Shown here one piece after another: positions 3,103 to 30,846 of a stretch of 31,825 nucleotides of DNA. The stretch lies in IMG/VR virus record IMGVR_UViG_3300045988_159010, one strand, 5' to 3'. This DNA is from a virus. The notes under the pieces were generated by a model. The model was not told the DNA's origin. It did not search any database and saw only the letters and a program-made list of their open reading frames with translations. The stretch's first letter is position 1. Every line of letters begins with the position of its first letter. Position numbers and translations under genes: made by a program.

Positions 3103-3122
3103 ATTTGGACCAAAATAGTATG

Positions 3123-10204: not shown

Positions 10205-10215
10205 GGAGGTAAATA

Positions 10216-10917: not shown

Positions 10918-10920
10918 TAA

Positions 10921-13818: not shown

Positions 13819-13831
13819 GGAGGAATTTTAA

Positions 13832-14239: not shown

Positions 14240-14243
14240 TAAA

Positions 14244-14279
14244 ATGGGAGAACCAATGCGGTTCTCCCATTTTTTTTTA
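14244..14279 (+). terminator. Rho-independent terminator after the holin
   Basis: Perfect 9-bp stem gggagaacc / ggttctccc, loop aatgc, then a run of 10 T. Confidence 0.8.
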
Positions 14280-14401
14280 TGCTTATTTATTATATTAAAA
14301 TGCCCTAAATTTTTTCCCAAAAATTTTGACAAAATTGGGAAATTATTTGACAATAATTTTTATATACCTATGGAAAGAATAAATAAGAAAGGATTTTAGT
14401 T

Positions 14402-14833: not shown

Positions 14834-14846
14834 GGAGTAATGAATT

Positions 14847-15083
14847 ATGCAGATGAATCCTATGTAGATTATTCAAATGATAAGAAGTGGGTCTAATCCT
14901 CAATAGCTAATGATGTCATTTTTATAGCAATAGAATAATCCAATGGCGAATAATTTGTTATAGATGGCATAGAATGGAAATATTAGTGGAATAGAGCAAA
15001 TAGCACGTAACATGTGTGCATAGAAAGGATTAGACTTTGATAAAGAATTTAGTTCCTTTAAGCAATAGCTTGGAATTAAATAA
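14847..15083 (+). CDS. Small hypothetical protein (78 aa) with 11 TAG codons (14%)
   Basis: RBS AAGGAG (14832-14837) plus ATG 14847 in frame 0, running to TAA 15081-15083. The translation MQMNPMQIIQMIRSGSNPQQLMMSFLQQQNNPMANNLLQMAQNGNISGIEQIARNMCAQKGLDFDKEFSSFKQQLGIK is natural only if TAG is a sense codon. Confidence 0.55.
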
Positions 15084-15109
15084 TATATTTATTAAAGGAG
15101 GACATTTTT

Positions 15110-15961
15110 ATGTTCAACACAAGTAATGGTTATAGTTTAGCTGATATTGCCGCGGCCACAGGCGGTAATGGATACCGTAATGGTGATGATGGTATGTGGG
15201 GTAATGGTGCATGGTGGATAATTATTCTTTTCCTTTTCTGCTTCAATGGCTGGGGCGGAAATGGCTGGGGTAATGGCGCCAATGGTTCTGGATATCAGGG
15301 AACTACAACAAGAGAAGAATTAACTTATGGCTTTGATGTAAGCGACATTAAGTCTGGCATTAATTCTTTACAGACAGGTTTATGTAATGGTTTTGCTGGC
15401 GTTAATAATAATTTATTAACTGGCTTTGCAGGCGTTACTGAAACTTTAAATGGAAATGCTCGTACCTTGCAATCTGATATTAGTAATTTAGGCATGAATG
15501 CTATGTAGAATACTTTTGGTATTACTCAAGCTATTAATGCTGATACTATTGCTAATATGTAGAACACAAACGCTCTTTCTCAGCAATTAAATAATATGGC
15601 AGCAACAAATGCTCATTGCTGCTGCGAGAATAAGAATCTTATTACATCAAGCTTCGCTGATTTAAATTATAATTTAGCAAGTCAAGCTTGTCAAAACCGT
15701 CAAGTAGTTAATGAAGGAGTAAGAGATATTATTGACAATACTAATGCTAGTATGCGTTCTATCCTTGATTTCCTTGTTCAAGATAAGATTGAAACTCTTA
15801 CTGCTGAAAATGCTACTCTTAAAGGTCAAATTTCTCAAAACTTACAGAATGCTTATTTAATAGACCAATTAAGCAGCAAAGCTCCTATCCCAGCTTATGT
15901 TGTTCAAAATCCTTATGCAGGAACTAATTATACTGGATGTGGATGCTAGTATACTGCTTAA
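15110..15961 (+). CDS. Gly/Trp-rich membrane protein (283 aa): GNGWG repeats, one TM (WWIIILFLFCF), Cys-rich C-terminus. 3 in-frame TAG
   Basis: RBS AAAGGAGG plus ATG 15110. ORF-track pieces 15110 and 15596 are both in frame 2 and are joined through TAGs. Ends at TAA 15959-15961. Confidence 0.55.
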
Positions 15962-15981
15962 TAAAGAAAAGAGGTTAAAAA

Positions 15982-16401
15982 ATGGAAATAACAGCTAATG
16001 CTTTACAAACGGTAAATGCCAATGGTAATGTAGTGTTTACTAATACCGCTGTTCCAGGTAGTTGCGCCATGGTTCATCGTGAAGGTAGCGGATTAGTAAC
16101 TTTACGAGGCATAACTAATCAATGTAGAGCCAGATTTAAGGTTACTTTTGGAGCTAATGTAGCTCTTCCAACTGGTGCAACTGTAGCTCCTATTTCTTTG
16201 GCAATAGCTATTAATGGGGAGCCTGTTGCAGAAACTACAATGATTTCAACTCCAACTGCAGTAGAATAGTTTAATAGTATTTCTCGTGCTTTATTTTTAA
16301 ATGTTCCACGTGGATGTTGCCAATAGATAAGTGTTGAGAATACCAGTGCTTCTGCCGTCAGTGTTGAAAATGCCAGTCTTATTATAGAAAGGGTGGCTTG
16401 A
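15982..16401 (+). CDS. BclA C-terminal-domain-like (C1q/TNF-fold) protein, 139 aa, 2 in-frame TAG
   Basis: RBS AAGAGG plus ATG 15982. The C-terminus ...SVENASLIIERVA closely parallels the Bacillus BclA / collagen-like exosporium protein C-terminus ...SIIIEKVA. The IAINGEPV segment matches the BclA beta-sandwich region IQVNGVPV. Ends at TGA 16399-16401. Confidence 0.55.
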
Positions 16402-16403
16402 CT

Positions 16404-16955
16404 ATGATGGAAAAATTATGTTAGATTAAAAATAGTTTAATAACTTTAGTTGAATAGCAAATGGCTAATCCTCAACAAGCAGATACCCATGAAATGGGAG
16501 AAGTTATTGATATGATTAAAGATTTGGCCGAAACTTGTTATTATGGATCAATCGTAGATGCTATGATAGGGAGTAAGGAAGAAGAAATTTATGGCATCGG
16601 TATGATGAAAGACCCTCGTAAACGTAAAAATCCATATCCTTATTATGTAAATAATGATTATTATGAAGATAAACATTATGGTAAGGATTATGATGGCGGA
16701 TATAACGGCTATAGTTATACAGGCACAGGCGGAATGAATGATGATAGTAAAAAAATGGGCCATAGCCCAATGAAGCGTAAATCTTACATTGAAAGTAAGG
16801 AACATCATATGGACTAGGCCCAATAGATGAGAGAGCTAGAAGATTATGCCCAAGTTCTAACTTCTGATCTTTTAGAAATGATTCAGGATGCTACTCCTGA
16901 AGAAAAACAATTATTACAAAGAAAGATAGCCACATTAGCTACAAAAATTGTATAA
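16404..16955 (+). CDS. Tyr/Gly/Asp-rich protein (183 aa), spore-coat-like composition. 6 in-frame TAG
   Basis: ATG 16404 lies 2 nt after the preceding TGA, in frame 0, and runs to TAA 16953-16955. It contains the ORF-track piece 16461-16817. Composition example: NPYPYYVNNDYYEDKHYGKDYDGGYNGYSYTGTGG. Confidence 0.5.
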
Positions 16956-16960
16956 GAATA

Positions 16961-17000
16961 AAAATAAGGGGAAGTAATTACTTCCCTTTATTTTTTTTAT
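16961..17000. terminator. Bidirectional rho-independent terminator at the convergence of the + and - modules
   Basis: Palindrome gggaagtaattacttccc with an A-run on the 5' side and a T-run on the 3' side. It therefore works as a terminator on both strands. Confidence 0.8.
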
Positions 17001-17002
17001 TC

Positions 17003-17434
17003 TTATACATCATGGACAGGTAATTGGATTGCCCGTTCATAATAAGTCTTTGCTTGACCATTTCCGCCCAAGCTAGTATAAACTTTATAAAATTCTACTA
17101 ATTGTTCGTACTCACCATTTGTCATAAATCCTTGCTGGATATATGCTTTACATAATTGAGTCAATCTAAAACGATAAGAAGCTAAAATTACATCCATATG
17201 ATTATTTGCAATTTTATTGCTTTCTAGTACATACTTTCGTAATTCTTCAATTTCTTGACGAATTGGCTCAATATGAGTTTCAATTGTATTATCTAAAGTA
17301 CTATTCTCTTTTTCTTCAGTTAGTTTTTTATAAGTTTTCATTTTGCTATGAAGATGTTTGCAGAAAGCTAGGGCGCCCGCAGAAATTAATCCAAAAATAA
17401 TTTCAAGCAGATGTGTTGTGATAAATTCTAACAT
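17003..17434 (-). CDS. Hypothetical membrane protein (143 aa, N-terminal TM helix)
   Basis: Complete ORF with no internal TAG. RBS GGGAGGA. TACAAT and TTGGGA-like promoter elements lie upstream. TM segment LLEIIFGLISAGALAF. Confidence 0.5.
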   Translation of the reverse strand: MLEFITTHLLEIIFGLISAGALAFCKHLHSKMKTYKKLTEEKENSTLDNTIETHIEPIRQEIEELRKYVLESNKIANNHMDVILASYRFRLTQLCKAYIQQGFMTNGEYEQLVEFYKVYTSLGGNGQAKTYYERAIQLPVHDV

Positions 17435-17520
17435 TTATATAATCCTCCCGACATGAATTTGTCGCTCTTTCTCATATTATAAATGAAAGAAAGAATTATA
17501 TAATTGTATAAAATTGCCCG

Positions 17521-18027
17521 TCATTCCCAATTTAATTCATCCTACTACGCTTTAAAATATGCAGTATATAAACATATAGCATCACAAACATCATCATTTG
17601 CTTCAATACCATATGTATCTTTTACATATTTTATGTCAAGAGGTTTAAGATTTTCACGTTTAATACCGCGGCCTGTTTTAATTCCTAAATTTTTTCGCCA
17701 TTCACTAGCTTGCATAAATTCTATGCTTTTGGAATTTATATTATCATTTACACTATGAGCACCAAGGACTATAGAGCCTTGAAGCCACATAAGTAAACGA
17801 GCTGTATCTGAGTAGCCATAAGCTTCTGGATGAACATCTTCAGCTATTAATTTTTCTATATTATACTATTTTACTAATTCAATAATTCCACTTTGTATCT
17901 TTTGGATACGGCTTACATTATTAGAAGAAGATGCAGTAATTAATCCATAAGTAATTAATTTACCTTTGTCATCTGATATAGCGTATCCAGTAGATTTTGT
18001 GGATAAGTCTAAAAATAAAAAATTCAT
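17521..18027 (-). CDS. ruvC: RuvC-like Holliday junction resolvase (168 aa), 3 in-frame TAG
   Basis: RBS GGAGGAG plus ATG 18027. The N-terminus MNFLFLDLSTKSTGYAI matches the RuvC catalytic-Asp motif, and the C-terminus has DDVCDAICL. The ORF track stops at TAG 17545, but two consecutive TAGs are read through to TGA 17521-17523. Confidence 0.65.
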
Positions 18028-18069
18028 ATAAATCTCCTCCTATTATAGAAGGAGATTATTATTTATTGA

Positions 18070-18618
18070 TTAATTATTAACGTCCTTACTGGTTGAACCA
18101 AATCCGCCAATTCTTGTACCTTTAGCTTTATCATCATCTGTAATAAGATAATTACGAATAATCCCTTGACCAATAATATCGCCCTTGGCAATTTCAATAT
18201 CAAAAGGTGAGAGATTAATTAATTGAAAATAAATATGACCCTCATTATCAGGATTGTTATAATAATCAGCATCAATGATGCCAACACTATTAGCCATAAT
18301 AATCCAATGCTTTAAGGGTAAAGAAGAACGAACAGATAGTTCAAGGAATTGTCCATCTTCCATATGGCACTTCATTCCAGTAGGGATAAGAGTAGGTTTT
18401 AAATTAAGTCCCTTAGTAATTTTAGCCATATCATTCAAAGAAATAATATCGTTAGTAGCTGCCCCATTTTTAAAAACTTCTACAATATGGGTATATGAAG
18501 GAATTACAACATCTTCAGCAGATGCAAAATCATAACCAGCACTATATTTAGTCTTACGTTCTGGCATTGGTAAATCCCAATTATTATATTTACTTACCTT
18601 TTCAAAATAAATACTCAT
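18070..18618 (-). CDS. dut: dUTPase
   Basis: Motifs SAGYD, GIIDADY and RIGGFGSTS. No TAG. Ends at TAA. Confidence 0.85.
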   Translation of the reverse strand: MSIYFEKVSKYNNWDLPMPERKTKYSAGYDFASAEDVVIPSYTHIVEVFKNGAATNDIISLNDMAKITKGLNLKPTLIPTGMKCHMEDGQFLELSVRSSLPLKHWIIMANSVGIIDADYYNNPDNEGHIYFQLINLSPFDIEIAKGDIIGQGIIRNYLITDDDKAKGTRIGGFGSTSKDVNN

Positions 18619-18893
18619 TAGTTAATTATAGTCTCCCCGTCAAAATTAGTTCTGGTTGTATAACAAAGTGAAATATGATCTGTCGGTTCTTTTTCATCAT
18701 TAAATTTTTTTACAAGGGTTACTTGATACCATTCATCAATAATCTCGCCCTTCTATTTACGTTCTTTCTTTGTAGAAGAATATTTAGCTAAATCATATTC
18801 TCTATCCTACTTAGCATTATTAATAAGCTCAGCTGCTTCTTTTTCTGTGTCTACTCTATATACTTCAGTAGTATTAATTAAATATTCAAACAT
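18618..18893 (-). CDS. Hypothetical protein (91 aa), 2 in-frame TAG
   Basis: RBS GGAGAA plus ATG 18893. Its TAA overlaps the dut ATG (TAATG). Confidence 0.45.
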
Positions 18894-18904
18894 ATTTTCT
18901 CCTA

Positions 18905-19165
18905 TTAATTTACATAAACTTTAATATTATTATTACTATACTTAGTAATTAAAGAATTTTCAATAGTTTCTTTAAGACCTTCGCCATAAGTTTGATTACC
19001 ATAAAGATGAATATCACTATCTTTATATTGTTCTGATAGCTTAGTTAAAGTATCACTAAGATTATCAAGACGGCAAGTGCAAACCATAATAGGCTTTTTA
19101 TCATTTGGACCTTGGTAATAAATAATTTGTGTTGTATTAAATAAATCAAAATAAGTAAATAACAT
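18905..19165 (-). CDS. Hypothetical protein (86 aa)
   Basis: Complete ORF. RBS GGAGA. Ends at TAA. Confidence 0.45.
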   Translation of the reverse strand: MLFTYFDLFNTTQIIYYQGPNDKKPIMVCTCRLDNLSDTLTKLSEQYKDSDIHLYGNQTYGEGLKETIENSLITKYSNNNIKVYVN

Positions 19166-19167
19166 AA

Positions 19168-19683
19168 TTATCTCCCTATCACTGGAACAATGCCAGCATC
19201 ATAATCAAATAAATGATAGCAATGAGTTTCATCGTTATTTGTAATCCAAATTTCAACTGCCCCAGAGCCACTATCATTAATGTCTTTAATCTGTCCTAAA
19301 TCTTTAATAATATCATAAACGGCGGAAGTCATATTAAGATAAGGATTATCATTGCTCAAGCTATTAGTTTCAAATACTGTATAATAATTTAGTTCATTAC
19401 ACAAAAGCATAAAATACTTATCAGAACTTTCTTGAACATAGGTATCAATAACTTCTAATTTTTTATCTATTTCTTCTGGAGTTAGTTCTTTCATTTGGCC
19501 AATTACACATTTATTTAATTCATAATTGCTCATTTTAAAATCGACGCCATCTGCTAATACACCCCATTCAGTGCCGGACCAGACATAATTATGGGTATCA
19601 GTAGTATTATAGAATACATCTCCTGCTTTTGGTTCTTTCTATATTGCTTCTTCTAAATTGGCAATCTTTCCTCTGTATCTCAT
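19168..19683 (-). CDS. Hypothetical protein (171 aa), 1 in-frame TAG
   Basis: RBS GGAG plus ATG 19683, which overlaps the nrdG TAA (TAATG). The frame continues through a TAG into the ORF-track piece 19168-19533. Confidence 0.5.
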
Positions 19684-20168
19684 TAATTCATCTCCTTTAA
19701 GTTTATAATATTTTGATTTTTACTACCTCTCATTGATAATGTAATATCTCTTTGAGACTGAATATATGGACCATCAATTAATACATCAGCTTTTTTAAGA
19801 ATTTCTTGAAGCTTACCATTAGTAGTTTGCTTAATTAAATCGTCATAATAATATCCAGTCCAAACATAAATTTTAGTATCAGGAAGCTTTTCTTTAATTG
19901 TATTAATAAGAAGTAGAGTGAGTAATTGATTTTGTTCACATAATGGTTCACCACCCATTATACAAAAATTTCTATGAATGCCATTAGCTTGAAGGGCTTG
20001 AAATATTTCTCCAAAAGTCTCATTAGTAAATTCTTTACCTTTTTCGAAATCCCAAGTTTCAGGATTATGACATCCAAAGCAATGATGTGGGCAACCTTGG
20101 GTGAAAAAGGAGACACATACTCCCGGAGCTGCGGCTATATCATTTTTTATAATTCCTGCGTATTTCAT
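19683..20168 (-). CDS. nrdG: Anaerobic ribonucleotide reductase activating protein (radical SAM)
   Basis: CxxxCxxC cluster GCPHHCFGC. The real start MKYAGI at 20168 follows RBS GGAGG and overlaps the upstream TGA (ATGA). No TAG. Confidence 0.8.
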   Translation of the reverse strand: MKYAGIIKNDIAAAPGVCVSFFTQGCPHHCFGCHNPETWDFEKGKEFTNETFGEIFQALQANGIHRNFCIMGGEPLCEQNQLLTLLLINTIKEKLPDTKIYVWTGYYYDDLIKQTTNGKLQEILKKADVLIDGPYIQSQRDITLSMRGSKNQNIINLKEMN

Positions 20169-20512
20169 TCTATAACCTCCCAAGAACAACAATATAAATC
20201 ACAGCAAGGTATAATTACTTGTTCTAACATTTCTTCATTATCATAATTTTTAGATATTTTTACCTTATTAAATCTATAACCTCTAACGTTATGTTTTATT
20301 GGAGTCCATATCCATTGTTCATTATTTTCTTGCCATTCTATACGGGTTTTCGATATTCTAATTGGTGTAATATTATTTTTATTCAAATAATCATAAACTT
20401 CTTGGGAATTATCCGTTATATAAGCACATATTACTATCTAATTAGAACAAGGATATTTTCTTCCTTCTTCCTAATTAAAATAGTTAGCTAAATCATAAAT
20501 TGAACGTCTCAT
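20165..20512 (-). CDS. Small Cys-rich hypothetical protein (115 aa) between nrdD and nrdG, 2 in-frame TAG
   Basis: ATG 20512 overlaps the nrdD TGA (ATGA). C-terminus CCDLYCCSW. The ORF-track piece 20165-20386 is its 3' part. Confidence 0.45.
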
Positions 20513-22773
20513 TCCATCTACCCCGTATGCTTTACTCGTGCTTCTACTTCTTTTTGCTTGCCATAATTAAAAGCTGTTTTGTAGTTTCCAGTTAAATAAC
20601 CAGTTACACGGCGTAATTGCTAGATATTAGTACTGCCGCATTCAGGACATTTATCATTAAATTCATCACAATATCCGCAATCAAGACAAGTATCATTAGG
20701 CACGTTTACTGCGAAATAAGGAATATCCTTATCCATAGCATAATTAACAATTTGTTCAAGAGCATCAATATTGTGTTTTACGGTGGAATCTAATTCTACG
20801 TATGTGATACATCCAGCAGAAGAATAACCAGTCAATTGGCTCTCAATGTCAATCTTATCAAAAGGTGACATTTTTTTCCAAACGGGAACATGAATACTGT
20901 TAGTAAAAAATTCTTTATCAGAGACATTAGGGATAATACCATATTTCTCTTTAAATTTAGTCATTGCCGTATAGCATAAATTTTCAGCAGGAGTGTAATA
21001 AACTCCAAAATTAAGTTTAAATTGTTCTTTTGCTTTTGCACAGTAATCTTTAAACATTTGTTCAATTCGTTTCGCTAATTCCATACCTTCTTTAGTTGTA
21101 TGGTCTTTACCAATAAGAATCTAAAGAGTTTCTGCTAAACCAATTTGTCCAATGGCTAATGTGCCATGCTTAAGGGCACTTCTAATTCCTTCTTCTGGAA
21201 TATAGCCAGCCATTAAATTATTTTCATACATAAATTTAGCAGACTTAGGATCTTGAGAGCAAATCCAATCAAAACGCTCCATTAATTGAATGCGAGCTTC
21301 ATTAATTTTTCTATTTAATAAAGCCATAAATACTGGAATAATATCTTCTTCTTGCCCTTCTTCTTCACATTCTTTTTTAGCAATCATAGCTAAAGTAGGA
21401 AGAATAATAGTTACTGGACAAATATTACCACGGCCATCTTTTAACTAACCGAAACCGTTAATATCGTACCCATTGGCTGTTCTGCATCCCATTGTAGAAA
21501 AATAGGTGCGGGGGTCATTGATGTCATATCCAGCGTTCCCTGACCAATCAACATTTGCATAGTTGGGATATAATCTTTGGGCGGTGGACTATAGTGCGAG
21601 TTTAAACAAATCATAATTTGGGTCACCTGGTTCACGGTTAACTCCTTTCATGCATTGGAAAATACCACAAGGGAAAATAGATGTTTTATGCAATTTACCA
21701 ATACCTTCAATAGATACATCTAAAAGTGCTTTAGTAATCATTCTTCCTTCTGGAAGAGTACAAGTACCATAATTAATAGATGTGAAAGGTAATTGATTAC
21801 CAGAACGAGATTGTAAAGTATTAAGGTTATGATACATACCTTCTACTGCTTGATGAACTTCTTTTAAAGTCATATCCATAGCGTATTGATATACTTTATC
21901 AAAATCTCCAGCATCATCTGCTTCATTTAGATAAGCTGAATAATTATTAATCGGAATATCTATGATTTTTTTATAGGTATCGCTATCTTCTAAATAGTTA
22001 TCTAAATTCCAATTACAATTGCATAAGTATTTCATACCATCACGATAATGCTTATAAAAAGATTTACGAACATAAGGAACCATAGTCCAATCAAGATGGG
22101 TCGCACTAACGCCACCAAATTGAGAAAGACTTTGAATTTGGAAAATAACAGCCACTAATTGGAAAGCTGTATTTACTGAACCTGCTGGACGTACATCTGT
22201 CTGGCGTGTATTAAATCCTTTAGCAAGTAAATCATCAAAAGGTACACTTAAACAATTATGAGAACCAACATAATAAGCATCTAAATCATGAGTATAAATT
22301 ATATTTTCTAAATGATTTTTGCGTGTCATAGGAGATACAATATAATCTAAAGCTAATTGTTTAGTTACTACACTACTGGCTTCACCAATACGGCCACCAA
22401 ATGATGCTTCATCTACATTGGCGTTTTGATTTTTAATATCTTTGCCATCTAATTTTTTTCTAATGGCTTGGATAAAATCATCTTTCTTTTGTCGTGCTAC
22501 TTCTTTTTTATATCTATATCTAATATAAGCTCGTGCAACATCACGTCGTTCTGACTACATTAAATAATCTTCAATTATATCTTGGATATCTTCTACTTCA
22601 ATACTACCATCTGGACATTTATTTATCCAAGATTCAATATCATTGGCAATATCAGTAGCTGTATCATTTTCATATAACTATCCATCGATTTCTATAAATG
22701 CCTTATTGATAGCATTAATTATTTTATTTTTATCAAATAATACAACTGTACCATCACGTTTAATTATATACAT
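20509..22773 (-). CDS. nrdD: Anaerobic ribonucleoside-triphosphate reductase (754 aa) with 7 in-frame TAG
   Basis: RBS GGAGG plus ATG 22773. N-terminal ATP-cone MYIIKRDGTVVLFDKNKIINAI. C-terminal Zn-ribbon CLDCGYCDEFNDKCPECGS, then the glycyl-radical motif RRVTGYL just after a TAG. Ends at TGA 20509-20511. The ORF-track pieces 21589-22329, 21121-21387 and 20620-21084 are all in this frame and are separated only by TAG codons. Confidence 0.85.
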
Positions 22774-22784
22774 TTTAACCTCCG

Positions 22785-22828
22785 CACTAAATATAGTATA
22801 AATTTTTGAACTTATACTATATTTAGTG
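22785..22828 (-). promoter_or_regulatory. Tandem NrdR-box-like palindromes (17-bp perfect inverted repeat, 10-bp spacer) immediately upstream of the nrdD RBS
   Basis: CACTAAATATAGTATAA, a 10-nt spacer, then TTATACTATATTTAGTG. Each arm is close to the NrdR box consensus acaCwAtATaTwGtgt. The centres are about 29 bp apart and overlap the likely -10 region. Confidence 0.45.
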
Positions 22829-22864
22829 TTTATTATTAATTCATTATCTACTTTGGGTTAAGAT

Positions 22865-23434
22865 TTAGTACCAAAACCAATCATAATCTGTAATTATATC
22901 ACAGCATTTTAATCTATCTCTTTCCGTTTCATTAAATAAAATTTGCATATTATCAAAATTTATATTTTTAAAGTCTTCTTCATCAGCAGAATAACGTCTA
23001 ATAATTTCTTTGATATTAGGGTATTCTTCTCTATTTAATTGACGAAGGAAACGCTGTTTATCAGAAGCATGAATATAATATATTCGTAAATCAATTTCTG
23101 AAAAATTGATTAATGATCTAATCCCAGAAGGATTAAAAATACCTATATTAATTTTATCATCAGCTAAACATTTAATACCAGTTCCATACCACCAATTATT
23201 AAATTGAACATATTCAAGCATTTGATTATTATTTATCATTTGCTTAAAATCTTCTTCAGATATAAAATGATATTCTTTTCCTTCTGTCTCTCCCTCACGC
23301 ATTGGACGAGTTGTATAAGAAACAACAATATTCATAGGTAATTCATAAGCTTTTACTACATCTTTTAAAATAGTATCTTTGCCTGAACCGGCTTTACCTA
23401 TAAGTGCGACTAATTGATATTTTTTATTATTCAT
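22865..23434 (-). CDS. gmk: Guanylate kinase-like nucleoside monophosphate kinase
   Basis: P-loop GKAGSGKDT and the guanylate kinase signature TTRPMREGETEGKEYHFISEEDF. No TAG. Confidence 0.7.
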   Translation of the reverse strand: MNNKKYQLVALIGKAGSGKDTILKDVVKAYELPMNIVVSYTTRPMREGETEGKEYHFISEEDFKQMINNNQMLEYVQFNNWWYGTGIKCLADDKINIGIFNPSGIRSLINFSEIDLRIYYIHASDKQRFLRQLNREEYPNIKEIIRRYSADEEDFKNINFDNMQILFNETERDRLKCCDIITDYDWFWY

Positions 23435-23683
23435 TTATTATTCCTTCTATTAAAAGACTAAAAACAATATTTACCATTACAACAATTATAAGAACACGAT
23501 CCTAAAAACTATGTTAAAAGGCATAAGATATCTGGAGTATATACCATCCAATAATCATTTCCATTTAACTCTCTTATAATTACTCTAAGATAAGGAGTCT
23601 ATTCAAATTTAATTAAAATTGTTCCTCTAATTTCAATATATTGATGGGTTTTTAACAAATCCTATAATTCATCATAATCAATT

Positions 23684-26600
23684 TTATTCTTCATCTTCTG
23701 CTACTCCTTGATATCGTTCACTTCTTAAAATTAAATCCCCATTTGATTGAATAGTGTCAATATGATAAAGTTGATGACCAGCAGTTGAGGCATATTTTTT
23801 AGCGATGAAATCATCGCCTGAACGGATACCTTGAACTACAATCATATTGCCCCGATTAAACCAAGATTTTTCAATAATTTTTTTAGTTCCATCAGGTTGT
23901 TTTTGAGAAATTTGTTTATCGAATAATGTAAAATATTCTTTTCTAAATTTTACATTTACTACTCCTGTTGGAGTAAGAATTGTTACAATACTTTTATTTT
24001 TATTTTTAGCAATACAAGTACCGCATAATTTAGATAAATAATAAATATTTATTGTTTTTCCAGCTTTAACAAAACTTCTTTCTACTACTGGATCTTCAGG
24101 TAAGTTATAAAAATCAGCGAAGCCATATTTACTTTGATTAACTTGAGCCAATTCATGTTCATGATAATAGAAGCATAATACTTCCATTTCCCAAGCTGAA
24201 TAATTTACTTTAGGACAATATTTTTTCCAATCGTCTTTAAATATAATTTCATTTAATTTATTTAAAATTTCTTTTTTATTATCAGCAATTTGTTTACGAT
24301 AAATATCCATCCAACCTTGATAAACTTTATCATTCCAATCTTTAATATTTAAATAAAAATTAGAATCTTTACTCTGAATTAAATCATCTTTATCAATTTT
24401 TTGTAAGAACTCAATAGCTCTATCATCCAATTTGTAATAAACTTTATCATATTTACAAATTTGTTTTAAATAACGAGTAAATTCATAAATGTGTAAAGCT
24501 TGCTGCCGTTCAAGAGTATCTGCAGGAAGAAGATTGAATTTCATTAAAGTAGCTAAATTTTGAAGATTAAGATTTTTCTTTTTATCACAAGTTTCCCAAA
24601 TATACCAGACCATACAAAGTTTTCTATCCATCATATGATCAAATGCTCCCCCTTTAATAAGTGAAATCATTGCTTGCTTATTAGGATTAACCTTATTTAA
24701 AAAATCTCTTGGGGATTTATAAGGTCTATTTTCAATAATAGTTTTAACTACATCATCACCAACATTTAGCATACCTTTTAAGCCAAATAGGATTTGATTA
24801 TTTTCAACGTCAGGAATAAAACTAAATTCTGATTTATTAATATCAGCAAGGCTTACTTGAATACCAGCTTTACGAATATCTCCAATAGCTTTAGCGATCT
24901 TTCCATAGTCAGTAGAATTAGTTTTTCTTACTTTAGATTTTTTATCAGGCAAATCTTCAAAAGTAACTCCATTAGCTAAATCATCTGCTTCTGGATCATA
25001 AATATCTACAATTTCTTCTTCACTATTGTCTTCCAAAGATCCACTATTAACAATCAGACAAGCACAATTCCAATAGATAGGATTATAATGAATAACAAAA
25101 TAAATCATTTGAATAGCCACAAAAGAATAAGGAAGAGAGTGATTTAAGCTAAAAGCATATCCTAATTGCGGTGCAACTGCTGTTTCCCAGAAATATTCTG
25201 CATCATTTTTATTATTAAAGCGACTAAATACTTGTTCTTTTAATTGAGGAATCTTAGCCATTTGTTTTTTAGCAACAACTTTACGAGCTGAATTAGCTTC
25301 ACCCAATGTAAAGTGTGCTATATCCATAAGGATTTCCATCATTTGCTCTTGTAAAGGGCAACAACCATAATATTTATCACAATGTTTATGGAATTTATCA
25401 ATAAGCTCTTGCGGCAAATGATGTTGTTTCATTTCTTGATCAAATGCTTGGATACCTTGATGCTGAATACGATAAAATCTATCTTGTTGTGATTCCTTAC
25501 CTTTTTCAGACATAAGACGCATCATGGCATTAGCCGCAGTCATTTCCATAGGATCTTGTGGTTTTAGTTTTTTAGCAATCGCTAAACCAACACCAGTAGA
25601 GAACTAGAAGCAGTCTAATACATCACCGGCTGCAAGATGATCCCAAATGCTTTGATCTGTTGTATCTATTACTTCTGGATGAATATATTGATTATAAAAA
25701 TCTCTTAAAGATAAGTCAGGAATTTCTTTTGCCTTTAATAATAATTCATAACAAGTAATAATTTTGTCAGAAGCTTCAGTAACAAGGAAATCATATTTTG
25801 TATCACCTGCTGCTTCAGCTTGATGTAAATCCCAACAAGTAATTAAACTGCCACTAGGCGTTCTCATAAATGCTGCTGTATCATATGGGTCATCACCATA
25901 AAGAATAACACCGGAAGCATGAGAAGAACGTTTATTAACAATACCACCAATATAAATAATTATATCAAGAAGACCTGGGTATTCATTTACTTTATTAATA
26001 AATGTTTTTACAGGCTTTCTATCTTTTTCTTCATTACCATAAATAACATCATTAATTTCCCATAAAAATCCACGCTCTTGCGGAATAAGAGAAGACATAT
26101 ATTGGGCTTCATCTACATCAATACCATTTGGATAATCATCAGATCTATAACCTCTACAAGCCGTAAGAATAGCAGATTTAGTAGTTTCAGTACCAAATGT
26201 AGCTACCTGAATTAATCCTAATTCTCCACGTTCTTTACGGATAGCTTCAAAAATGGCTGGACGCTTTGAAGGAGCCAAATCAATATCAATATCAGGCAAT
26301 TCAGCTCTCTCTTTATTCAAGAATCTCCAATATGGTAAACCCCATCGAATTGGATCCAATTGGGTTATTCCCAATAGATAATTAGATAAGAAGCCTGTGG
26401 CCGAACCACGTCCAGGACCTACTATTGAGCCACAATTCCAAAACAAATCAATATAATGTTTAAAAGTATTAAAATAAGCAAAAAGGCAATCATCTAATTT
26501 TTCGCCAATATCTCTTATAATATCAGCTTCAATTTCAAGACGAGCTAAATAATTTTCATTATAATAAAGTTGTTTTTCTTGTAAAGCTTTAATACATTCA

Positions 26601-27664
26601 TTTATCCAATATCGTTCTTGAATATTATCACTATTAATTAAAGAACAAATAATAGGATATTTATCAATCCATTCTATAGGGATAAAACCTTTTTTATAAT
26701 CTAATACTTCTACTTTTGGAATTATTTGTTTTCTCTCAAGAGAAAAATCTTCAATTTTATTTTGAATTTCAAGAGTATTATTTAAAATTTCTTTAGCTAT
26801 TTCTTCTGGTTGTTCTTCAATATCTAAATATATAAAACAAGGGACAATTAATTCAAAAACTTCATCATAAGTCATTAAATGAGCAAATTCATAAAACTTG
26901 TCAACTTCTCGTTCTCCATCTTTTGAATTAAGATAAGCTTTATGAATTGGTCTATCTTCTTTCGTTAAATAATGGCTATCAGTAGCAACTTCTACTTTAA
27001 TTCCATATTTATGACCGATTTTATAAATCATATGGTTTACAAGTTTTTGATCTGCCGCGGTCGATGGAGCAATTTCTAAATAGAAATCGTCACCAAATAA
27101 GTCTTGACAGAAAGTAAGAAAAGTATCTATTTGTTTTAAAATTTGATACAATTCATAATTATTTTCTTGTTCTTTATATTCTACAGCTTTTAAAAGACAA
27201 GTACCTAATTCTCCACCAATACATGCAGTAGTGGCAATTAAATGCCCCTTATATTTCTCTACTACTGATTTTAATTCATTCTTTAAAAGTGGAACACGTT
27301 CCATTTTTCTATCAACATATAAATTTTGCCAAGCAATTGAGCTTAATTCTTTTAATGCTCGATATCCTATAGCATCTTTAGCAATTAAAATAAAATGGTA
27401 ATACTTTTGTCCTGTGCTTCTATCATCAGTTAAATAAATTTCATTGCCTAATGCTATTTTAAAATTTGGATATTTTTCTTTGATTTTTTTAGCATATTGA
27501 TTTACTGTCATATGAGCAGAAAGACTTTCGTGATCTGTGATAGCAATTCCCGAAAGTCCTAATTCAATAGCTTTATCAATTAAAGTTTCTGGCTTATTTA
27601 TACAATCCAGTAAACGGAGGTTCGAATAATCAGTATGATTATGGCAACCAAAATAAGTATTCAA
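23684..27664 (-). CDS. dnaE: DNA polymerase III alpha subunit (DnaE-type, N-terminal PHP domain), 1326 aa. One gene containing a single in-frame TAG at 25604-25606
   Basis: PHP motifs HNHTDYS and ITDHESL. RBS AAGGAGG plus a TTG start at 27664. ORF-track pieces 25604-27664 and 23684-25549 are in the same frame. The 18 codons between them (FSTGVGLAIAKKLKPQDP) have no stop. Ends at TAA. Confidence 0.85.
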
Positions 27665-27702
27665 TTCCCTACCTCCTTAATTTATTATTATTTTCTATAA
27701 AT

Positions 27703-27731
27703 ATTATATCATAAAATTTCATCAAAATCAA
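27703..27731 (-). promoter_or_regulatory. SigmaA-type promoter for dnaE
   Basis: On the - strand: TTGATT, a 17-nt spacer, then TATAAT. It sits about 30 nt upstream of the dnaE RBS. Confidence 0.5.
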
Positions 27732-27733
27732 TT

Positions 27734-27925
27734 TTAAAAATCATCTATCTAATTAGCTATTCTATTTATGATACCGGCTAATTCAATTAAATTCTATTTA
27801 TATGTTGATAAATTATTTTTTAATTTTTGATTTTCATTGCGTAAATAATTAATTTGGTTTTGATTTTGTTGTTGTTGTAGATCTAACTCATGACCTAGCT
27901 AATTAAGCAAATTTTGTATTTCCAT
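27734..27925 (-). CDS. Small coiled-coil protein (63 aa), 3 in-frame TAG
   Basis: RBS GGAG plus ATG 27925, which overlaps the upstream TAA (TAATG). With TAG=Q the sequence reads LQQQQNQNQINYLRNENQKLKNNL. Confidence 0.4.
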
Positions 27926-28524
27926 TATTCTATAATCTCCAAATGATAATTATTTTTTTCATTTAAACAGTCCAAAAGAGTATAAAATAAACTATGATAA
28001 TAAGGTGGAACCCATTCTGGAGATAAACAGATAAAATATTTATCATAAGAATTAGCAAATTTAAATTCTTTAAATGGTATTTTGTTATATTCAAAAGGTA
28101 CTTCATAATTAGGATTCCAAGAATTATTATTATGAACCCAAGTATAACTTTTTAATTTATTCTAATCATAGAAATATTTAACCCAATCAGCACAACTACA
28201 ATCACACAATTTATTTTCTGCGTCTTTAGGATTATAAAAAATATCATGATGATGATCTATATTAGTTATATTTAAATCATAATCATATTGTAAATATTCT
28301 TTTATTTTATTATGACCATAAGAAATATAAATAGAAGTTGTTTTATCTATAGTTCGTAATAAATATCTAAGTATATTAGAATAAATATTTAAATCAGCAG
28401 GAGTTGTTGTAAGATTGGGTAAACTTTTTAATAAATCATCCCAATTAGTCCCAGGAACCATATTATTATATAAATTAATACTTGGTGCCATAATAATATC
28501 AAAATCTATGCTTAATACATTCAT
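27925..28524 (-). CDS. Hypothetical protein (199 aa, IDHHHD motif), 1 in-frame TAG
   Basis: RBS AAGGAA plus ATG 28524. The ORF-track piece 28162-28524 extends through a TAG to TAA 27925-27927. Confidence 0.45.
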
Positions 28525-28527
28525 ATA

Positions 28528-29646
28528 TTATTTCCTTATAACTACTAATTTTTCACTGGCTCTTGTAATGCCAGTATATAAATATTTCTAATGTTCTAAT
28601 GTATCAAAAGGATGGGCTTCTTCAATTAATAACACTTTATCCCATTCACTACCTTGAGCTTTCCAAACAGTTATTGCATAAGCATAAGCAAAATAATAAG
28701 GAGCTTCTAATGCATCAGAATTTCTAGCAAAACTATTCATTCTAAATGCTTGCTTATTATCAAAGGCTGGAGTACCTGTAATTAAAGCCTCATAATCAAT
28801 AGGTATAGATTCAAATCTTCCATTGGGTATATCCATCCCCGTAAACATATACTGAAGTTGTTTATTATAAATAAAGCTTGGATAATTATATGGAATAATT
28901 TGATAATTAGTAATCGTTCCAATACATCCATTAGTTAAAGGCCATAAACCATCAGTAGATGTAAAATCCCAATGGTTAGTTAATCCTATAATTTTATCTC
29001 CTATTTCTGGAGTAGCTCCTCGTCCTTGTCGCTCTCGAACTTTATTATTAATTTTAATACGTCTTTTATTAGATGCACATAAAGTTTGATCTGCCCAATC
29101 ATACATTTCTGGAATTAATTCATATGGCCTTAAAATCTAGACCTATTCTTTAGCTACTGGGAATTGCCCAAGGGGTTTACCTTCTCGTACCCACATAGAT
29201 AATCTAATAATTTCACTATCTTGGGCCTGTCGCATAATTTCATCTAAAAAGATATGCGGCTTATCTAAGACATGATTATCTTCATTTTGGTCTACTGGAG
29301 GAAGCTAAAAGGGATCACCACAAGCAATTACATATTTATGGTGAGAAAGAAGTAAATCCCACATTGTTTTAGGTAACATTGATATTTCATCTACAATGAT
29401 TACTTTATATGGAATAGGCCATCTTTTTTTTAAATAAAATGTACCATTAGGTCTTGGTTTAGCTTCATATAGTAATTTATGTGCTGTTGTTGCATTAGGA
29501 CATCCTTTTGTTTGAAGAACAGTAGCTGCTTTGCCAGTATAAGCTACATATGCTACATCAGTTTCAGGATTTAAATTCAATGATTGAACTATAAATTTTA
29601 CTAATGTAGATTTACCCGTTCCAGTTAAGCATAGCCAGCAATACAA
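28528..29646 (-). CDS. Dda/RecD-like SF1 ATP-dependent DNA helicase (about 372 aa), 3 in-frame TAG. N-terminus uncertain (TTG start)
   Basis: Walker A LTGTGKST and Walker B IIVDEISM. With TAG=Q the motif GDPFQLPPV is restored. Further motifs ITVWKAQGSEWDKV and LYTGITRASEKLVVI. ORF-track pieces 29305-29646 and 28588-29106 are in the same frame and are joined through TAGs. Confidence 0.75.
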
Positions 29647-29706
29647 GTATAAGGTTCACGGCTCTTGTATCTGGCTACGGCAATTTTCAATCCAGCATTC
29701 TATTTA

Positions 29707-30120
29707 TCAGTTAGTATCAATGGGATTTACTTCTCCTTTCCATATAAATTCATCATTTTCAAAGACTACCTTCATTGGTTTTTCTTGAGCTGTTGGAATA
29801 ATATAAACATAATCTTCATCAAATGGCATTTTTAATCTACTATCACCATTTTCATCAAAAATTTCTAAATCATATTTTCGATTTGAGCTTTCGGTCTCTA
29901 CGCCTGCTCTTGGCCGGAGCATAGCCATCTTTTTGTTGCCCTTGCCGCCCCTAATTTCATAGGCATCACAAGGAGCTATTTTATTAAATTCATCAAGGTT
30001 AGCTATTAAATCATTAATAGCTTTTCCAGCTTCTTCAGCTGAAATACCAAAGCTACCCCAAGAAGTAGCCATTTTATTTATAAGTTTATTAAATTCATCT
30101 TCATTGAACGAAGTATTCAT
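29707..30120 (-). CDS. Hypothetical protein (137 aa)
   Basis: Complete ORF ending in TGA. Overlaps the upstream gene by 20 nt. Confidence 0.4.
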   Translation of the reverse strand: MNTSFNEDEFNKLINKMATSWGSFGISAEEAGKAINDLIANLDEFNKIAPCDAYEIRGGKGNKKMAMLRPRAGVETESSNRKYDLEIFDENGDSRLKMPFDEDYVYIIPTAQEKPMKVVFENDEFIWKGEVNPIDTN

Positions 30121-30829
30121 AGGCTATTGTTGCATATTGTTGTCTAACATAATTTGATTGCGGTAATCCTCTTTCATAGCATTTCATAAAAGCTAAAGCA
30201 GCTTCTTGCTCATTTTCCAATTCTAAAAATTTTTCAAAATTAAAATTATTTGAATAACAAAAACCAAACATATCAATTTGATATTTAATATCATCACGAA
30301 GAAAATCCATTTGGCCCTTTAGGTCTGCACCCCATACTTCATCAGTAAATACCTGATTCCATTGACATAATCCATAAAATCCATTACCATAAATAGTAGT
30401 TTGCAAATCTAAAGTCCCGCCACCAACCTCAGCCATCATATTACCTAAAATACCAGCACATACGTAATTATTCCAGCCAAGATTTTTCATATATTCCCAA
30501 ATAAGAGTAGCGTCCTTGTATTCAAGGTCATCTAATTCTTTATTAATTTTATCTAATTGATTTTGATAAAATTTAATAATTTCATTATAAAAATACCACT
30601 GACTTTTAGCACTTATAATTGGTTGACTATTTTCTGTATAACCAATCATTCGAGCTTTATCAGCCACTAAATGCACTTCTTCTTTTTTCAATGTATATTC
30701 TTCAATTAAATTGATAAGTTCCCAATAATTATTGGTTTCTTTTAAAGGAGTATATTCAACAGCTATTGCACTTACATTAATAGTTAAAATTAAAAGAATA
30801 CTAATAATTATAATAATTTTTGTTTTCAT
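30101..30829 (-). CDS. Secreted protein with a putative lysozyme-like (phage tail lysozyme family) domain
   Basis: Sec-type signal peptide MKTKIIIIISILLILTINVSA. The segment GILGNMMAEVGGG...GLCQWN resembles the GNxxxESG...GxxQW signature of the phage tail lysozyme family, as recalled from memory. Confidence 0.4.
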   Translation of the reverse strand: MKTKIIIIISILLILTINVSAIAVEYTPLKETNNYWELINLIEEYTLKKEEVHLVADKARMIGYTENSQPIISAKSQWYFYNEIIKFYQNQLDKINKELDDLEYKDATLIWEYMKNLGWNNYVCAGILGNMMAEVGGGTLDLQTTIYGNGFYGLCQWNQVFTDEVWGADLKGQMDFLRDDIKYQIDMFGFCYSNNFNFEKFLELENEQEAALAFMKCYERGLPQSNYVRQQYATIAYEYFVQ

Positions 30830-30846
30830 ATTTTTCTCTCTATCTA

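What the first reader, a model, noticed from the sequence alone, without database searches (positions are those of the whole stretch)
22785..22828. Host-type NrdR operator (tandem palindromic boxes) in front of the phage nrdD-nrdG operon
A perfect 17-bp inverted repeat, CACTAAATATAGTATAA N10 TTATACTATATTTAGTG, sits between gmk and the nrdD RBS. Each arm resembles the NrdR box consensus acaCwAtATaTwGtgt. This suggests the phage RNR operon is under host dNTP-responsive NrdR repression, which would be a phage co-opting a host regulator.
Basis: partly seen in the sequence, partly recalled or inferred. Interest (0 to 1): 0.55.

Follow-up and report, generated by a model that had tools for sequence, protein, structure and literature searches.

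The report
NrdR repressor site before phage nrdD
A gut phage carries, directly in front of its anaerobic ribonucleotide reductase genes, a textbook two-box binding site for the bacterial dATP/ATP-sensing repressor NrdR, so the phage's supply of DNA building blocks is probably switched by a host regulator.

Summary
The inverted repeat is real: 17-nt perfect arms at 22785-22801 and 22812-22828, extendable to 20 nt. The genes lie on the minus strand in the order gmk-like, repeat, GGAGG, nrdD, a 115-aa ORF, nrdG. Read on that strand the repeat is two 16-bp NrdR boxes, ACACTAAATATAGTAT and ATACTATATTTAGTGC, separated by 14 bp and ending 10 nt before the ATG.

- **Match to the published site.** Both boxes carry all six conserved positions (C4 A6 A8 T9 T11 G13).
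- **Score.** With a matrix built from 23 experimentally bound boxes they rank first and second in the window. The pair scores 28.8 bits, against a maximum of 26.0 in 1000 null sequences.
- **Conservation.** Phages whose NrdD is 69-97% identical keep the boxes 10-16 nt before nrdD. Their linkers are unrelated in sequence and always 14-16 bp.
- **Symmetry.** Box 2 is the reverse complement of box 1, as in the experimentally bound nrdDG operators of Listeria and Streptococcus.
- **Known-host case.** Bacillus phage SPbetaL4 has an identical box 1 upstream of its nrdI-nrdE genes.

No terminator, no Rfam family and no nearby phage nrdR gene was found. The host is unidentified (probably Bacillota) and binding is untested. 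This is a new member of a known kind.

The parts
22814..22829 (-). NrdR box 1 (promoter side); on the nrdD sense strand it reads ACACTAAATATAGTAT
   Evidence: C4 A6 A8 T9 T11 G13 are all present. Matrix score 14.8 bits, rank 1 of the window. All 16 positions are identical to box 1 of Bacillus phage SPbetaL4. The core CTAAATATAG equals that of L. monocytogenes nrdAB distal box 1.
22800..22813 (-). 14-bp linker between the boxes (sense AAGTTCAAAAATTT), partly palindromic
   Evidence: Linkers of 14-17 bp are accepted by NrdR proteins and occur naturally. Relatives have unrelated linkers of 14, 15 or 16 bp.
22784..22799 (-). NrdR box 2 (gene side); sense ATACTATATTTAGTGC, directly abutting the Shine-Dalgarno sequence
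   Evidence: All six conserved positions are present. Score 14.0 bits, rank 2 of the window. It is the reverse complement of box 1 at 15 of 16 positions.
22785..22828 (.). The inverted repeat as reported (17-nt perfect arms; 20-nt arms with one mismatch)
   Evidence: As RNA it would fold at -21.8 to -23.5 kcal/mol, z -4 to -8.
22816..22821 (-). Candidate -10 hexamer TATAGT inside box 1 (inferred)
   Evidence: TATAGT at box positions 9-14 is shared by 6 of 7 operator variants. A TTAAnn-like -35 lies 16 nt upstream in most relatives, but is weak in the window itself. Not mapped experimentally.
22832..22861 (-). Alternative promoter-like site (TTAACC, 18 nt, AATAAT) ending 3 nt before box 1 (inferred)
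   Evidence: Consensus scan, 9 of 12 matches. The region has no more such sites than its shuffles.
22779..22783 (-). Shine-Dalgarno GGAGG, 5 nt before the nrdD ATG (22773..22771)
   Evidence: Read directly from the sequence.
20509..22773 (-). nrdD, class III ribonucleotide reductase with an N-terminal ATP-cone, 754 aa, 7 in-frame TAG codons
   Evidence: Pfam NRDD 1.1e-143, ATP-cone 6.9e-23, Gly_radical. Public gene calls give the same 754-aa product.
20165..20512 (-). 115-aa ORF of unknown function between nrdD and nrdG, overlapping both
   Evidence: No Pfam hit. Called as a gene in public assemblies.
19683..20168 (-). nrdG activase (radical SAM), 161 aa from the ATG
   Evidence: Pfam Fer4_12 5e-39 and Radical_SAM. 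Gene call of 161 aa.
22865..23434 (-). Guanylate-kinase-family gene immediately upstream of the operator
   Evidence: Pfam Guanylate_kin 8.5e-25. The order gmk, operator, nrdD is conserved in L058, L092, L113 and L115.

Best explanation
The repeat is a two-box NrdR operator of the type found before nrdDG operons in Bacillota. It controls the phage nrdD-orf-nrdG operon. Established for NrdR proteins elsewhere: a tetramer loaded with dATP plus ATP binds two 16-bp boxes about three helical turns apart, with one pair of Zn-ribbons per box. ATP-only NrdR forms larger oligomers that do not bind DNA. Inferred here: box 1 overlaps the promoter (-10/TSS region) and box 2 covers the short leader up to the Shine-Dalgarno sequence. 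The host's NrdR would therefore block transcription of the phage reductase when dATP is plentiful and release it when phage DNA synthesis drains dATP. The phage NrdD also has its own ATP-cone, so the same signal would act at both the transcriptional and the enzyme level. Shown: the sequence match, its statistical significance, position, spacing and conservation. Inferred: which protein binds, the promoter position, and the physiological logic.
For: 1. The site meets the published definition (C4 A6 A8 T9 T11 G13, 8-bp C-G distance, 14-17 bp linker, at least 63% AT core, upstream of an RNR operon) in both boxes. 2. With a matrix from 23 bound boxes the two boxes rank 1 and 2 of 31.8 kb. The pair scores 28.8 bits against a null maximum of 26.0 in 1000 sequences. 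Control phages SPbeta (50 kb) and Phass-1 (136 kb) have no properly spaced pair of 20 bits or more. 3. Nine relatives with NrdD at 70-97% identity carry a pair scoring 23.7-29 bits. In eight of them it ends 10-16 nt before the nrdD start; in L022 the top-scoring pair is an upstream box plus box 1 with a 26-bp linker and ends 44 nt before the start, and box 2 there is the C-N9-G variant. Apart from L015/L016 (20.5 bits, carried by a single strong box 2.6 kb upstream), loci without the operator score 16 bits or less anywhere. 4. Across 7 operator variants the six key positions are invariant in 13 of 14 boxes. Linkers are unrelated in sequence but always 14, 15 or 16 bp. 5. The one deviant box (L022 box 2) has a 9-bp C-G distance, which experiments tolerate in one box only. 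6. The mirror arrangement of the boxes matches the bound nrdDG operators of L. monocytogenes (12/16), S. thermophilus (14/16) and S. pneumoniae (16/16). In Listeria nrdDG the ATG is 13 bp after box 2; here it is 10 nt. 7. Bacillus subtilis phage SPbetaL4 has ACACTAAATATAGTAT-N17-ACACAATATATAGATT (31 bits) in the intergenic region before its yosL-like/nrdI/nrdE genes. 8. NrdR proteins bind boxes from other phyla, so a phage-borne site is readable by any host NrdR.
Against: The host is unknown, so presence of NrdR was not verified; NrdR is absent from about 23% of bacterial genomes. No binding or expression data exist. The 14-bp linker is at the edge of the optimum: tight for Listeria NrdR (2 nM) but about 13-17 times weaker than the 15-16 bp optimum for S. 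pneumoniae NrdR. Each box alone is not significant in this AT-rich sequence (window-wide p about 0.1-0.2). The promoter is not mapped, and the -35 in the window itself is poor. The two boxes covary as a long inverted repeat beyond what NrdR is known to need (covariation score 0.246 against 0.081 in shuffles), so an additional hairpin role is possible.
Confidence: 0.72

Rival explanations
1. The repeat acts as an RNA hairpin in gmk-nrdD read-through transcripts, or at the 5' end of the nrdD mRNA. It would affect processing, stability or translation, either instead of or in addition to NrdR binding.
For: The stem is predicted at -21.8 to -23.5 kcal/mol with z -4 to -8. Seven of 8 operator variants fold at -17 to -22 kcal/mol. 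Flank positions covary between the arms (5 pairs changed on both sides; 0 of 500 shuffles reach the score). In the window type and in L022 the linker is itself palindromic with unrelated sequences.
Against: A hairpin does not explain four observations. Each arm is internally palindromic at exactly the NrdR positions. The linker is held at 14-16 bp while loop sizes range from 3 to 18 nt. L003/L004 fold only weakly, at -7.9 kcal/mol, z -1.7. The same box occurs in SPbetaL4 with a non-mirror partner. Mirror symmetry is also a property of proven nrdDG NrdR operators. There is no Rfam match. The Shine-Dalgarno sequence lies outside the stem.
Confidence: 0.1
2. The boxes are a relic carried along when nrdD was acquired from a bacterium. 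They are not used in the present host, which may lack NrdR.
For: Phage RNR genes are commonly acquired by transfer (general knowledge). Host identity and NrdR status are unknown. Many related phage nrdD genes have no boxes.
Against: The boxes stay intact in lineages whose NrdD has diverged to 69-70% identity. Over the same divergence the linker and the upstream 40 nt have been replaced: boxes 0.77 identity, against 0.52 and 0.57 under best alignment. Near-identical strains vary around the boxes but not within positions 2-15. This indicates purifying selection.
Confidence: 0.08
3. The site is read by a phage-encoded protein, either an NrdR copy or an NrdR-type Zn-ribbon protein encoded elsewhere in the roughly 188-kb genome, rather than by the host repressor.
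For: A survey of gut phages lists nrdR (K07738) among phage-borne genes. Environmental viral contigs encode 47-112 aa NrdR Zn-ribbon proteins without an ATP-cone. Only about 33 kb of the genome was inspected.
Against: There is no NrdR-like ORF in the window, in the 10 kb either side of nrdD in sister strains, or in about 1 Mb of viral DNA fetched around box pairs. Two viral-collection scans for NrdR motifs returned no contig of this phage clade; both scans were of limited sensitivity.
Confidence: 0.07
4. The repeat is an intrinsic terminator of gmk, or a chance palindrome in AT-rich DNA.
For: It lies 36 nt after the gmk stop codon and forms a strong stem.
Against: No terminator-like site was found. 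The stem has almost no G+C and is followed by GCGGAGGTTAAAATG, not by a T-run. Chance is excluded by the pair statistics and by conservation.
Confidence: 0.02

Closest known systems
NrdR operators of Bacillota nrdDG operons (L. monocytogenes, S. pneumoniae, S. thermophilus), experimentally bound (PMC12051234)
   Same: Two 16-bp boxes with the same six conserved positions and AT-only cores. Box 2 mirrors box 1 (12-16 of 16; the window has 15 of 16). The site lies immediately before the gene (13 bp from box 2 to the ATG in Listeria; 10 nt here).
   Different: The site is in a phage genome, not a bacterial chromosome. The linker is 14 bp rather than 15-16 bp (or 25-26 bp in S. pneumoniae). The strong CAC/GTG half-sites face outward in the window, but inward in the three bacterial sites and in phage relatives L005, L006 and L058. 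Binding is untested.
Box pair upstream of the class Ib RNR genes of Bacillus phages SPbetaL4, L6, L7 and BUCT083 (found here; unannotated in the SPbetaL4, L6, L7 and BUCT083 records)
   Same: A phage-borne pair with an identical box 1 (16/16), a 17-bp linker and a 31-bit pair score, lying before a phage RNR operon. The replication module is of the same SPbeta type.
   Different: It precedes nrdI-nrdE (class Ib) at about 190 nt, not nrdD at 10 nt. Its boxes are not mirror images. SPbeta itself lacks the pair.
Host LexA boxes in temperate phages such as Bacillus phage GIL01 (PMC4551915)
   Same: A phage places the operator of a host global repressor on its own promoter, so that a host physiological signal controls phage genes (abstract).
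   Different: A different repressor and a different signal (DNA damage, not the dATP/ATP ratio). There the target is the lysis-lysogeny switch; here it is a metabolic operon.

Membership tests
NrdR-binding site (NrdR box pair) | Two partially palindromic 16-bp boxes | tested here: met
   22814-22829 and 22784-22799. Within-box pairs 3-14, 4-13, 5-12, 6-11 and 8-9 are complementary in both boxes.
NrdR-binding site (NrdR box pair) | Conserved C4, A6, A8, T9, T11, G13 in each box, with an 8-bp C-G distance | tested here: met
   All 12 positions are present. They are invariant in 13 of 14 boxes across 7 phage variants.
NrdR-binding site (NrdR box pair) | Linker of 15-16 bp (14-17 tolerated, or 24-27) | tested here: met
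   14 bp in the window, at the edge of the range; 15 and 16 bp in relatives.
NrdR-binding site (NrdR box pair) | At least 63% A+T between C4 and G13 | tested here: met
   8 of 8 A/T in both boxes.
NrdR-binding site (NrdR box pair) | Lies within about 500 nt upstream of an RNR operon | tested here: met
   Box 2 ends 10 nt before the nrdD ATG.
NrdR-binding site (NrdR box pair) | Overlaps the promoter or transcription start | tested here: inconclusive
   There are two candidate promoters: TATAGT in box 1, or AATAAT 3 nt upstream. Neither is strong and there are no TSS data.
NrdR-binding site (NrdR box pair) | Scores like known sites and above the genomic background | tested here: met
   14.8 and 14.0 bits against a training median of 13.8. 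The pair at 28.8 bits exceeds all 1000 nulls.
NrdR-binding site (NrdR box pair) | Bound by NrdR loaded with dATP plus ATP; loss of binding on C4/G13 mutation | not testable with these tools
   Needs EMSA or MST.
NrdR-binding site (NrdR box pair) | An NrdR protein is present in the cell (host or phage) | not testable with these tools
   The host is unidentified. No nrdR was found in the window or within 10 kb of nrdD.
Intrinsic (Rho-independent) terminator | G+C-rich stem followed by a T-run | tested here: not met
   No terminator-like site. The stem is A+T-rich and the tail is GCGGAGG.
Curated structured RNA family (Rfam 15) | Match to a covariance model | tested here: not met
   No match at E of 1 or less in 22500-23100.

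The most novel reading that the evidence does not exclude
NrdR boxes may be a general device by which phages of NrdR-bearing hosts read the cell's dATP/ATP state, and not only for reductase genes. In other 90-215 kb gut-phage contigs, at least 134 NrdR-type box pairs and triples lie in intergenic regions. Their linkers are almost always 15 or 16 bp, there are several per 13 kb, and most precede non-RNR genes. These phages may run a large part of their early or replication programme through host NrdR. As the phage DNA replicates, its many sites could titrate NrdR and derepress host reductases. The window's operator would be the simplest member of this strategy.
Probability: 0.3. Interest if true: 0.75.

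Novelty: new member of a known kind. Interest (0 to 1): 0.5.

Why it matters
NrdR is described as a strictly prokaryotic repressor of cellular reductase operons. In five searches of the held literature I found no paper on its operators in phage genomes.

A conserved NrdR operator on a phage reductase operon means the virus lets the host's dATP/ATP sensor decide when to make its own dNTP-synthesising enzyme. That is feedback control of the step that limits phage DNA replication.

It gives a directly testable system, because Bacillus phage SPbetaL4 has the same box and grows in a genetically tractable host. It also adds NrdR to the short list of host regulators (such as LexA) known to be co-opted by phages.

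The many NrdR-type sites before non-reductase genes in other gut phages suggest the phenomenon may be much broader than this one operon.

Tried and rejected
- **Terminator and known RNA.** Neither a terminator-like site nor an Rfam match was found.
- **Phage-encoded NrdR.**
  - tblastn and a profile search of the window, of the 10 kb either side of nrdD in sister strains, and of about 1 Mb of fetched viral DNA found only NrdD's own ATP-cone.
  - A viral-collection scan with an NrdR alignment returned only Zn-ribbon mini-proteins on unrelated environmental contigs.
  - A codon-biased RFASVY pattern scan gave three truncated hits on unrelated contigs.
  - SPbeta YosT, next to its nrd genes, is GyrI-like and not NrdR.
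- **Host identification.** The genome-collection scan returned only the phage itself, binned in an 'uncultured Mollicutes' MAG, plus three distant loci without boxes. Public assemblies gave human-gut samples but no host.
- **Other sites in the window.** The third-best box (18539-18554) lies inside dut. It is explained by the codons for the RKTKYSAGYD motif and has no partner box.
- **Controls.** SPbeta (50 kb) and the code-15 gut phage Phass-1 (136 kb) have no valid pair. The Thomasclavelia phage nrdD has no boxes.
- **BLAST with operator DNA against isolated phages.** The window operator led to SPbetaL4. A perfect-box query found nothing, probably because of low-complexity masking.
- **Literature.** Five searches found no paper on NrdR boxes in phages.

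Full report
**Observation**

The + strand reads CACTAAATATAGTATAA at 22785-22801 and TTATACTATATTTAGTG at 22812-22828. These are perfect 17-nt arms 10 nt apart. The repeat finder extends them to 20-nt arms at 95% complementarity with a 4-nt gap.

All neighbouring genes are on the minus strand. nrdD is broken into pieces under the standard code. Reading TAG as a sense codon doubles ORF coverage of the window, from 15.6 to 32.8 kb. It also gives a 754-aa NrdD (ATP-cone plus NRDD, E 1e-143) running from 22773 to 20509. At the TAG positions, standard-code homologues mostly have Gln. Public gene calls give the same 754-aa protein.

The local order on the minus strand is:
- guanylate-kinase-family gene (23434..22865);
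- a 91-nt gap containing the repeat;
- GGAGG (22783..22779) and the ATG (22773);
- nrdD, an overlapping 115-aa ORF, and nrdG (20168..19683).

**What the repeat is made of**

On the nrdD sense strand it reads ACACTAAATATAGTAT, then AAGTTCAAAAATTT, then ATACTATATTTAGTGC, then GGAGGTTAAAATG.

The current experimental definition of an NrdR site is as follows (J Bacteriol 2026, PMC13584703; Mol Microbiol 2025, PMC12051234):
- two partially palindromic 16-bp boxes with conserved C4, A6, A8, T9, T11 and G13;
- an 8-bp C-G distance, with 9 bp tolerated in one box;
- at least 63% A+T between C4 and G13;
- a linker of 15-16 bp, with 14-17 or 24-27 bp accepted;
- a position upstream of a ribonucleotide reductase operon.

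Both boxes meet every sequence criterion. The linker is 14 bp. That is tight for Listeria NrdR (2 nM), weaker for the S. pneumoniae protein, and natural in Thermotoga nrdJ. The 10-bp cores are identical to those of two experimentally bound boxes. These are L. monocytogenes nrdAB distal box 1 (CTAAATATAG) and S. pneumoniae nrdHEF box 2 (CTATATTTAG).

**Is it more than chance?**

The six-position core alone is common in this 27-30% G+C sequence: 9 hits against 11 expected. A correctly spaced pair occurs only here. About 3% of dinucleotide shuffles contain any such pair anywhere in 31.8 kb.

I built a symmetrised weight matrix from 23 boxes that purified NrdR proteins bind. The boxes came from the tables of PMC13584703 and the oligonucleotide list of PMC12051234; the latter is machine-read, so minor transcription noise is possible. 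Results:
- The two boxes rank first and second in the window, at 14.8 and 14.0 bits. The training median is 13.8.
- The pair scores 28.8 bits. The next best pair in the window scores 14.5.
- The maximum over 1000 first-order Markov sequences of the same length is 26.0.
- Each box alone would not be significant (window-wide p about 0.1-0.2). The pair is.

As negative controls, 50 kb of SPbeta and the whole 136-kb code-15 gut phage Phass-1 contain no properly spaced pair of 20 bits or more.

**Conservation**

Of 50 related nrdD loci (46 viral contigs, and 4 loci from the genome-collection scan), nine (L002-L006, L020, L022, L023, L048) carry a pair scoring 23.7-29 bits. In eight of them it ends 10-16 nt before the nrdD start codon. 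In L022 the top-scoring pair is an upstream box plus box 1 with a 26-bp linker. It ends 44 nt before the start, and box 2 there is the C-N9-G variant. Apart from L015/L016 (20.5 bits, carried by one strong box 2.6 kb upstream), loci without the operator score 16 bits or less anywhere in 8-9 kb. A pattern scan added L058/L113 and L092.

Seven distinct operator variants result, in phages whose NrdD is 69-97% identical to the window's:
- The six key positions are invariant in 13 of 14 boxes.
- Linker sequences are unrelated, but their lengths are only 14, 15 or 16 bp.
- Mean pairwise identity is 0.77 in the boxes. Under best alignment it is 0.52 in the linkers and 0.57 in the 40 nt upstream.
- The single deviant box (L022 box 2) has a 9-bp C-G distance, the variant shown experimentally to be tolerated in one box.
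- Near-identical strains from human-gut assemblies vary around the boxes but not within box positions 2-15.
- The order gmk, operator, nrdD is conserved.

This is the pattern expected of a protein-binding site under selection with a spacing constraint.

**Hairpin or operator?**

As RNA the repeat would fold strongly, at -21.8 to -23.5 kcal/mol with z -4 to -8. Seven of eight variants fold at -17 to -22 kcal/mol.

Box 2 is the reverse complement of box 1 even at flank positions that NrdR is not known to read, and these positions covary between lineages. Five pairs have changes on both sides. The covariation score is 0.246 against 0.081 in shuffles, and 0 of 500 shuffles reach it. In the window type and in L022 the linker is itself palindromic, with unrelated sequences.

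A hairpin alone does not explain the following:
- the internal palindromy of each arm at exactly the NrdR positions;
- the fixed 14-16 bp spacing, while loop sizes range from 3 to 18 nt;
- the weak fold of L003/L004 (-7.9 kcal/mol);
- the same box in SPbetaL4 with a non-mirror partner.

Decisively, the three experimentally bound Bacillota nrdDG operators are also mirror pairs: Listeria 12/16, S. thermophilus 14/16 and S. pneumoniae 16/16, with flanks 5-6 of 6. The E. coli and Streptomyces sites are not. Mirror symmetry is therefore a feature of this class of operator, presumably reflecting the two-fold symmetry of the tetramer.

An added RNA role in read-through transcripts remains possible. 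I record it as unexplained rather than excluded. No terminator-like site and no Rfam family match the region.

**Promoter**

Two candidates exist.
- TATAGT at box 1 positions 9-14 (22821..22816). A TTAAnn element lies 16 nt upstream in most relatives, but the window's own -35 is poor.
- TTAACC, 18 nt, AATAAT, ending 3 nt before box 1.

Either places box 1 on the -10/TSS region and box 2 on the short leader. [quoted passage not shown] It also matches Listeria nrdDG, where the ATG lies 13 bp after box 2. The promoter is inferred, not mapped.

**Who binds?**

NrdR proteins from different phyla bind each other's boxes, so the site is readable by any host NrdR.

The host is not identified. The following point to a low-G+C Bacillota host in the human gut:
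- The replication module is SPbeta-like: YorL-type polymerase at 38-41% identity to Enterococcus and Bacillus phages, a RecJ-like gene and a YonG_N gene.
- The nearest isolated-phage nrdD belongs to Thomasclavelia phages.
- The same phage is binned in an 'uncultured Mollicutes' MAG.
- Assemblies carrying it come from human-gut samples.

No nrdR gene lies in the window, in the 10 kb either side of nrdD in sister strains, or in about 1 Mb of viral DNA fetched around box pairs. Two limited scans of the viral collection for NrdR motifs hit no contig of this clade. The rest of the roughly 188-kb genome was not seen, so a phage-encoded reader cannot be excluded.

**A case with a known host**

Blasting the operator against isolated phages led to Bacillus subtilis phages SPbetaL4, L6, L7 and BUCT083. 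In SPbetaL4 a 467-bp intergenic region holds ACACTAAATATAGTAT-N17-ACACAATATATAGATT. Box 1 is identical to the window's, and the pair scores 31 bits. The pair lies about 190 nt before a yosL-like gene followed by nrdI and nrdE. SPbeta itself lacks it. This gives a genetically tractable system in which to test the idea.

**Comparison with what is known, and novelty**

The element is a member of the NrdR operator family by every sequence feature that defines it. Binding and the presence of NrdR could not be tested.

What is new is its location. Five full-text searches found no paper describing NrdR boxes in phage genomes. The recent NrdR papers survey bacterial genomes only. Use of host repressors by phages is known for LexA. 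I therefore rate it a new member of a known kind, of moderate interest.

**Beyond the finding**

Linkers were 15 bp (83), 16 bp (24), 14 bp (4), 17 bp (2), 24-27 bp (8) and 19 bp (1).

With the matrix and linkers of 8-40 bp allowed, 142 of 163 pairs had 15- or 16-bp linkers. There were also three-box arrays and extra unseeded pairs in the same loci. These collapse to 40 families after removing similar linkers. The pairs are intergenic: 7% lie inside long ORFs, against 75% of random positions.

Only the AAATAT/ATATTT-type pairs precede nrdD. The perfect ACTATATATAGT pairs lie in other large gut-phage contigs before:
- NAD-dependent DNA ligase, with nrdDG 3.6 kb further on in two loci;
- a nucleoside-hydrolase-like protein;
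- a GHKL-ATPase-like protein;
- many small unknown proteins.

This was only partly followed up. It supports the more novel reading that some phages use NrdR-type operators genome-wide.

Noticed in passing
whole window; for example nrdD codons at 22680, 22557, 21591, 21447, 21123, 20622, 20520: The phage uses TAG as a sense codon (code 15-like). There are seven in-frame TAGs in nrdD. ORF coverage doubles when TAG is read through. Standard-code homologues have Gln at the best-conserved of these positions. The polymerase gene (23684-27664) is likewise joined across a TAG. There is no tRNA gene in the window.
   Followed up: partly
L052-L170 (IMG/VR contigs of about 90-215 kb, mostly from sample 3300045988): At least 134 NrdR-type box pairs and three-box arrays, with linkers almost always 15 or 16 bp. 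There are several per 13 kb. They are intergenic (7% in ORFs against 75% of random positions) and mostly precede non-RNR genes: LigA, a nucleoside-hydrolase-like protein, a GHKL-ATPase-like protein and small hypotheticals. This suggests a genome-wide NrdR-type regulon in other large gut phages.
   Followed up: partly
L246 2502-2550 (Bacillus phage SPbetaL4, OQ921344.1, about 3724-3772): An unannotated NrdR box pair (ACACTAAATATAGTAT-N17-ACACAATATATAGATT, 31 bits) lies in the intergenic region before the yosL-like/nrdI/nrdE genes. L6, L7 and BUCT083 matched the same box-1 region in the BLAST search. It is absent from SPbeta (SPBc2).
   Followed up: partly
L171-L201 (environmental viral contigs): Short ORFs of 47-112 aa consist of the NrdR Zn-ribbon DNA-binding domain (Pfam PF22811, E 5e-19 and 5e-15 for the two tested) without an ATP-cone. 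They could be nucleotide-independent NrdR mimics or competitors.
   Followed up: partly
window 18539-18554: The third-best NrdR-like box of the window (GCACTATATTTAGTCT, 13.5 bits) lies inside the dUTPase gene. It encodes the RKTKYSAGYD motif and has no valid partner box, so it is most likely a by-product of coding.
   Followed up: yes
L022 2899-2956 (relative with NrdD 93% identical): Box 2 has a 9-bp C-G distance. An extra box (GTACTAAATCTTGGAC) overlaps the gmk stop codon 26 bp upstream of box 1. The homologous window sequence (22856-22871) lacks G13. This may be a compensating third box.
   Followed up: no
window 22800-22813 and L022 linker: In these two closely related lineages the linker itself is palindromic with unrelated sequences, closing the stem to a 3-4 nt loop. 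More distant variants have unpaired A- or T-rich linkers. The cause is unresolved: template-switch homogenisation or a hairpin function.
   Followed up: partly
L001 (Thomasclavelia phage TR-TP1, PQ571309.1, 62758-65881): The closest isolated-phage nrdD is annotated as two CDS separated by an HNH endonuclease gene, which looks like a homing-endonuclease or intron insertion.
   Followed up: no
L248 4445-5014; L253/L254 12606-13283: Strain-level insertions in otherwise near-identical phages: a GIY-YIG endonuclease gene before the polymerase, and a 225-aa ORF between the 115-aa ORF and nrdG.
   Followed up: no
window 16955-17003: A block of large plus-strand ORFs without identified function (1-16955) and the minus-strand replication and nucleotide-metabolism block (17003-31743) converge here. 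GC skew changes sign at the same point.
   Followed up: no
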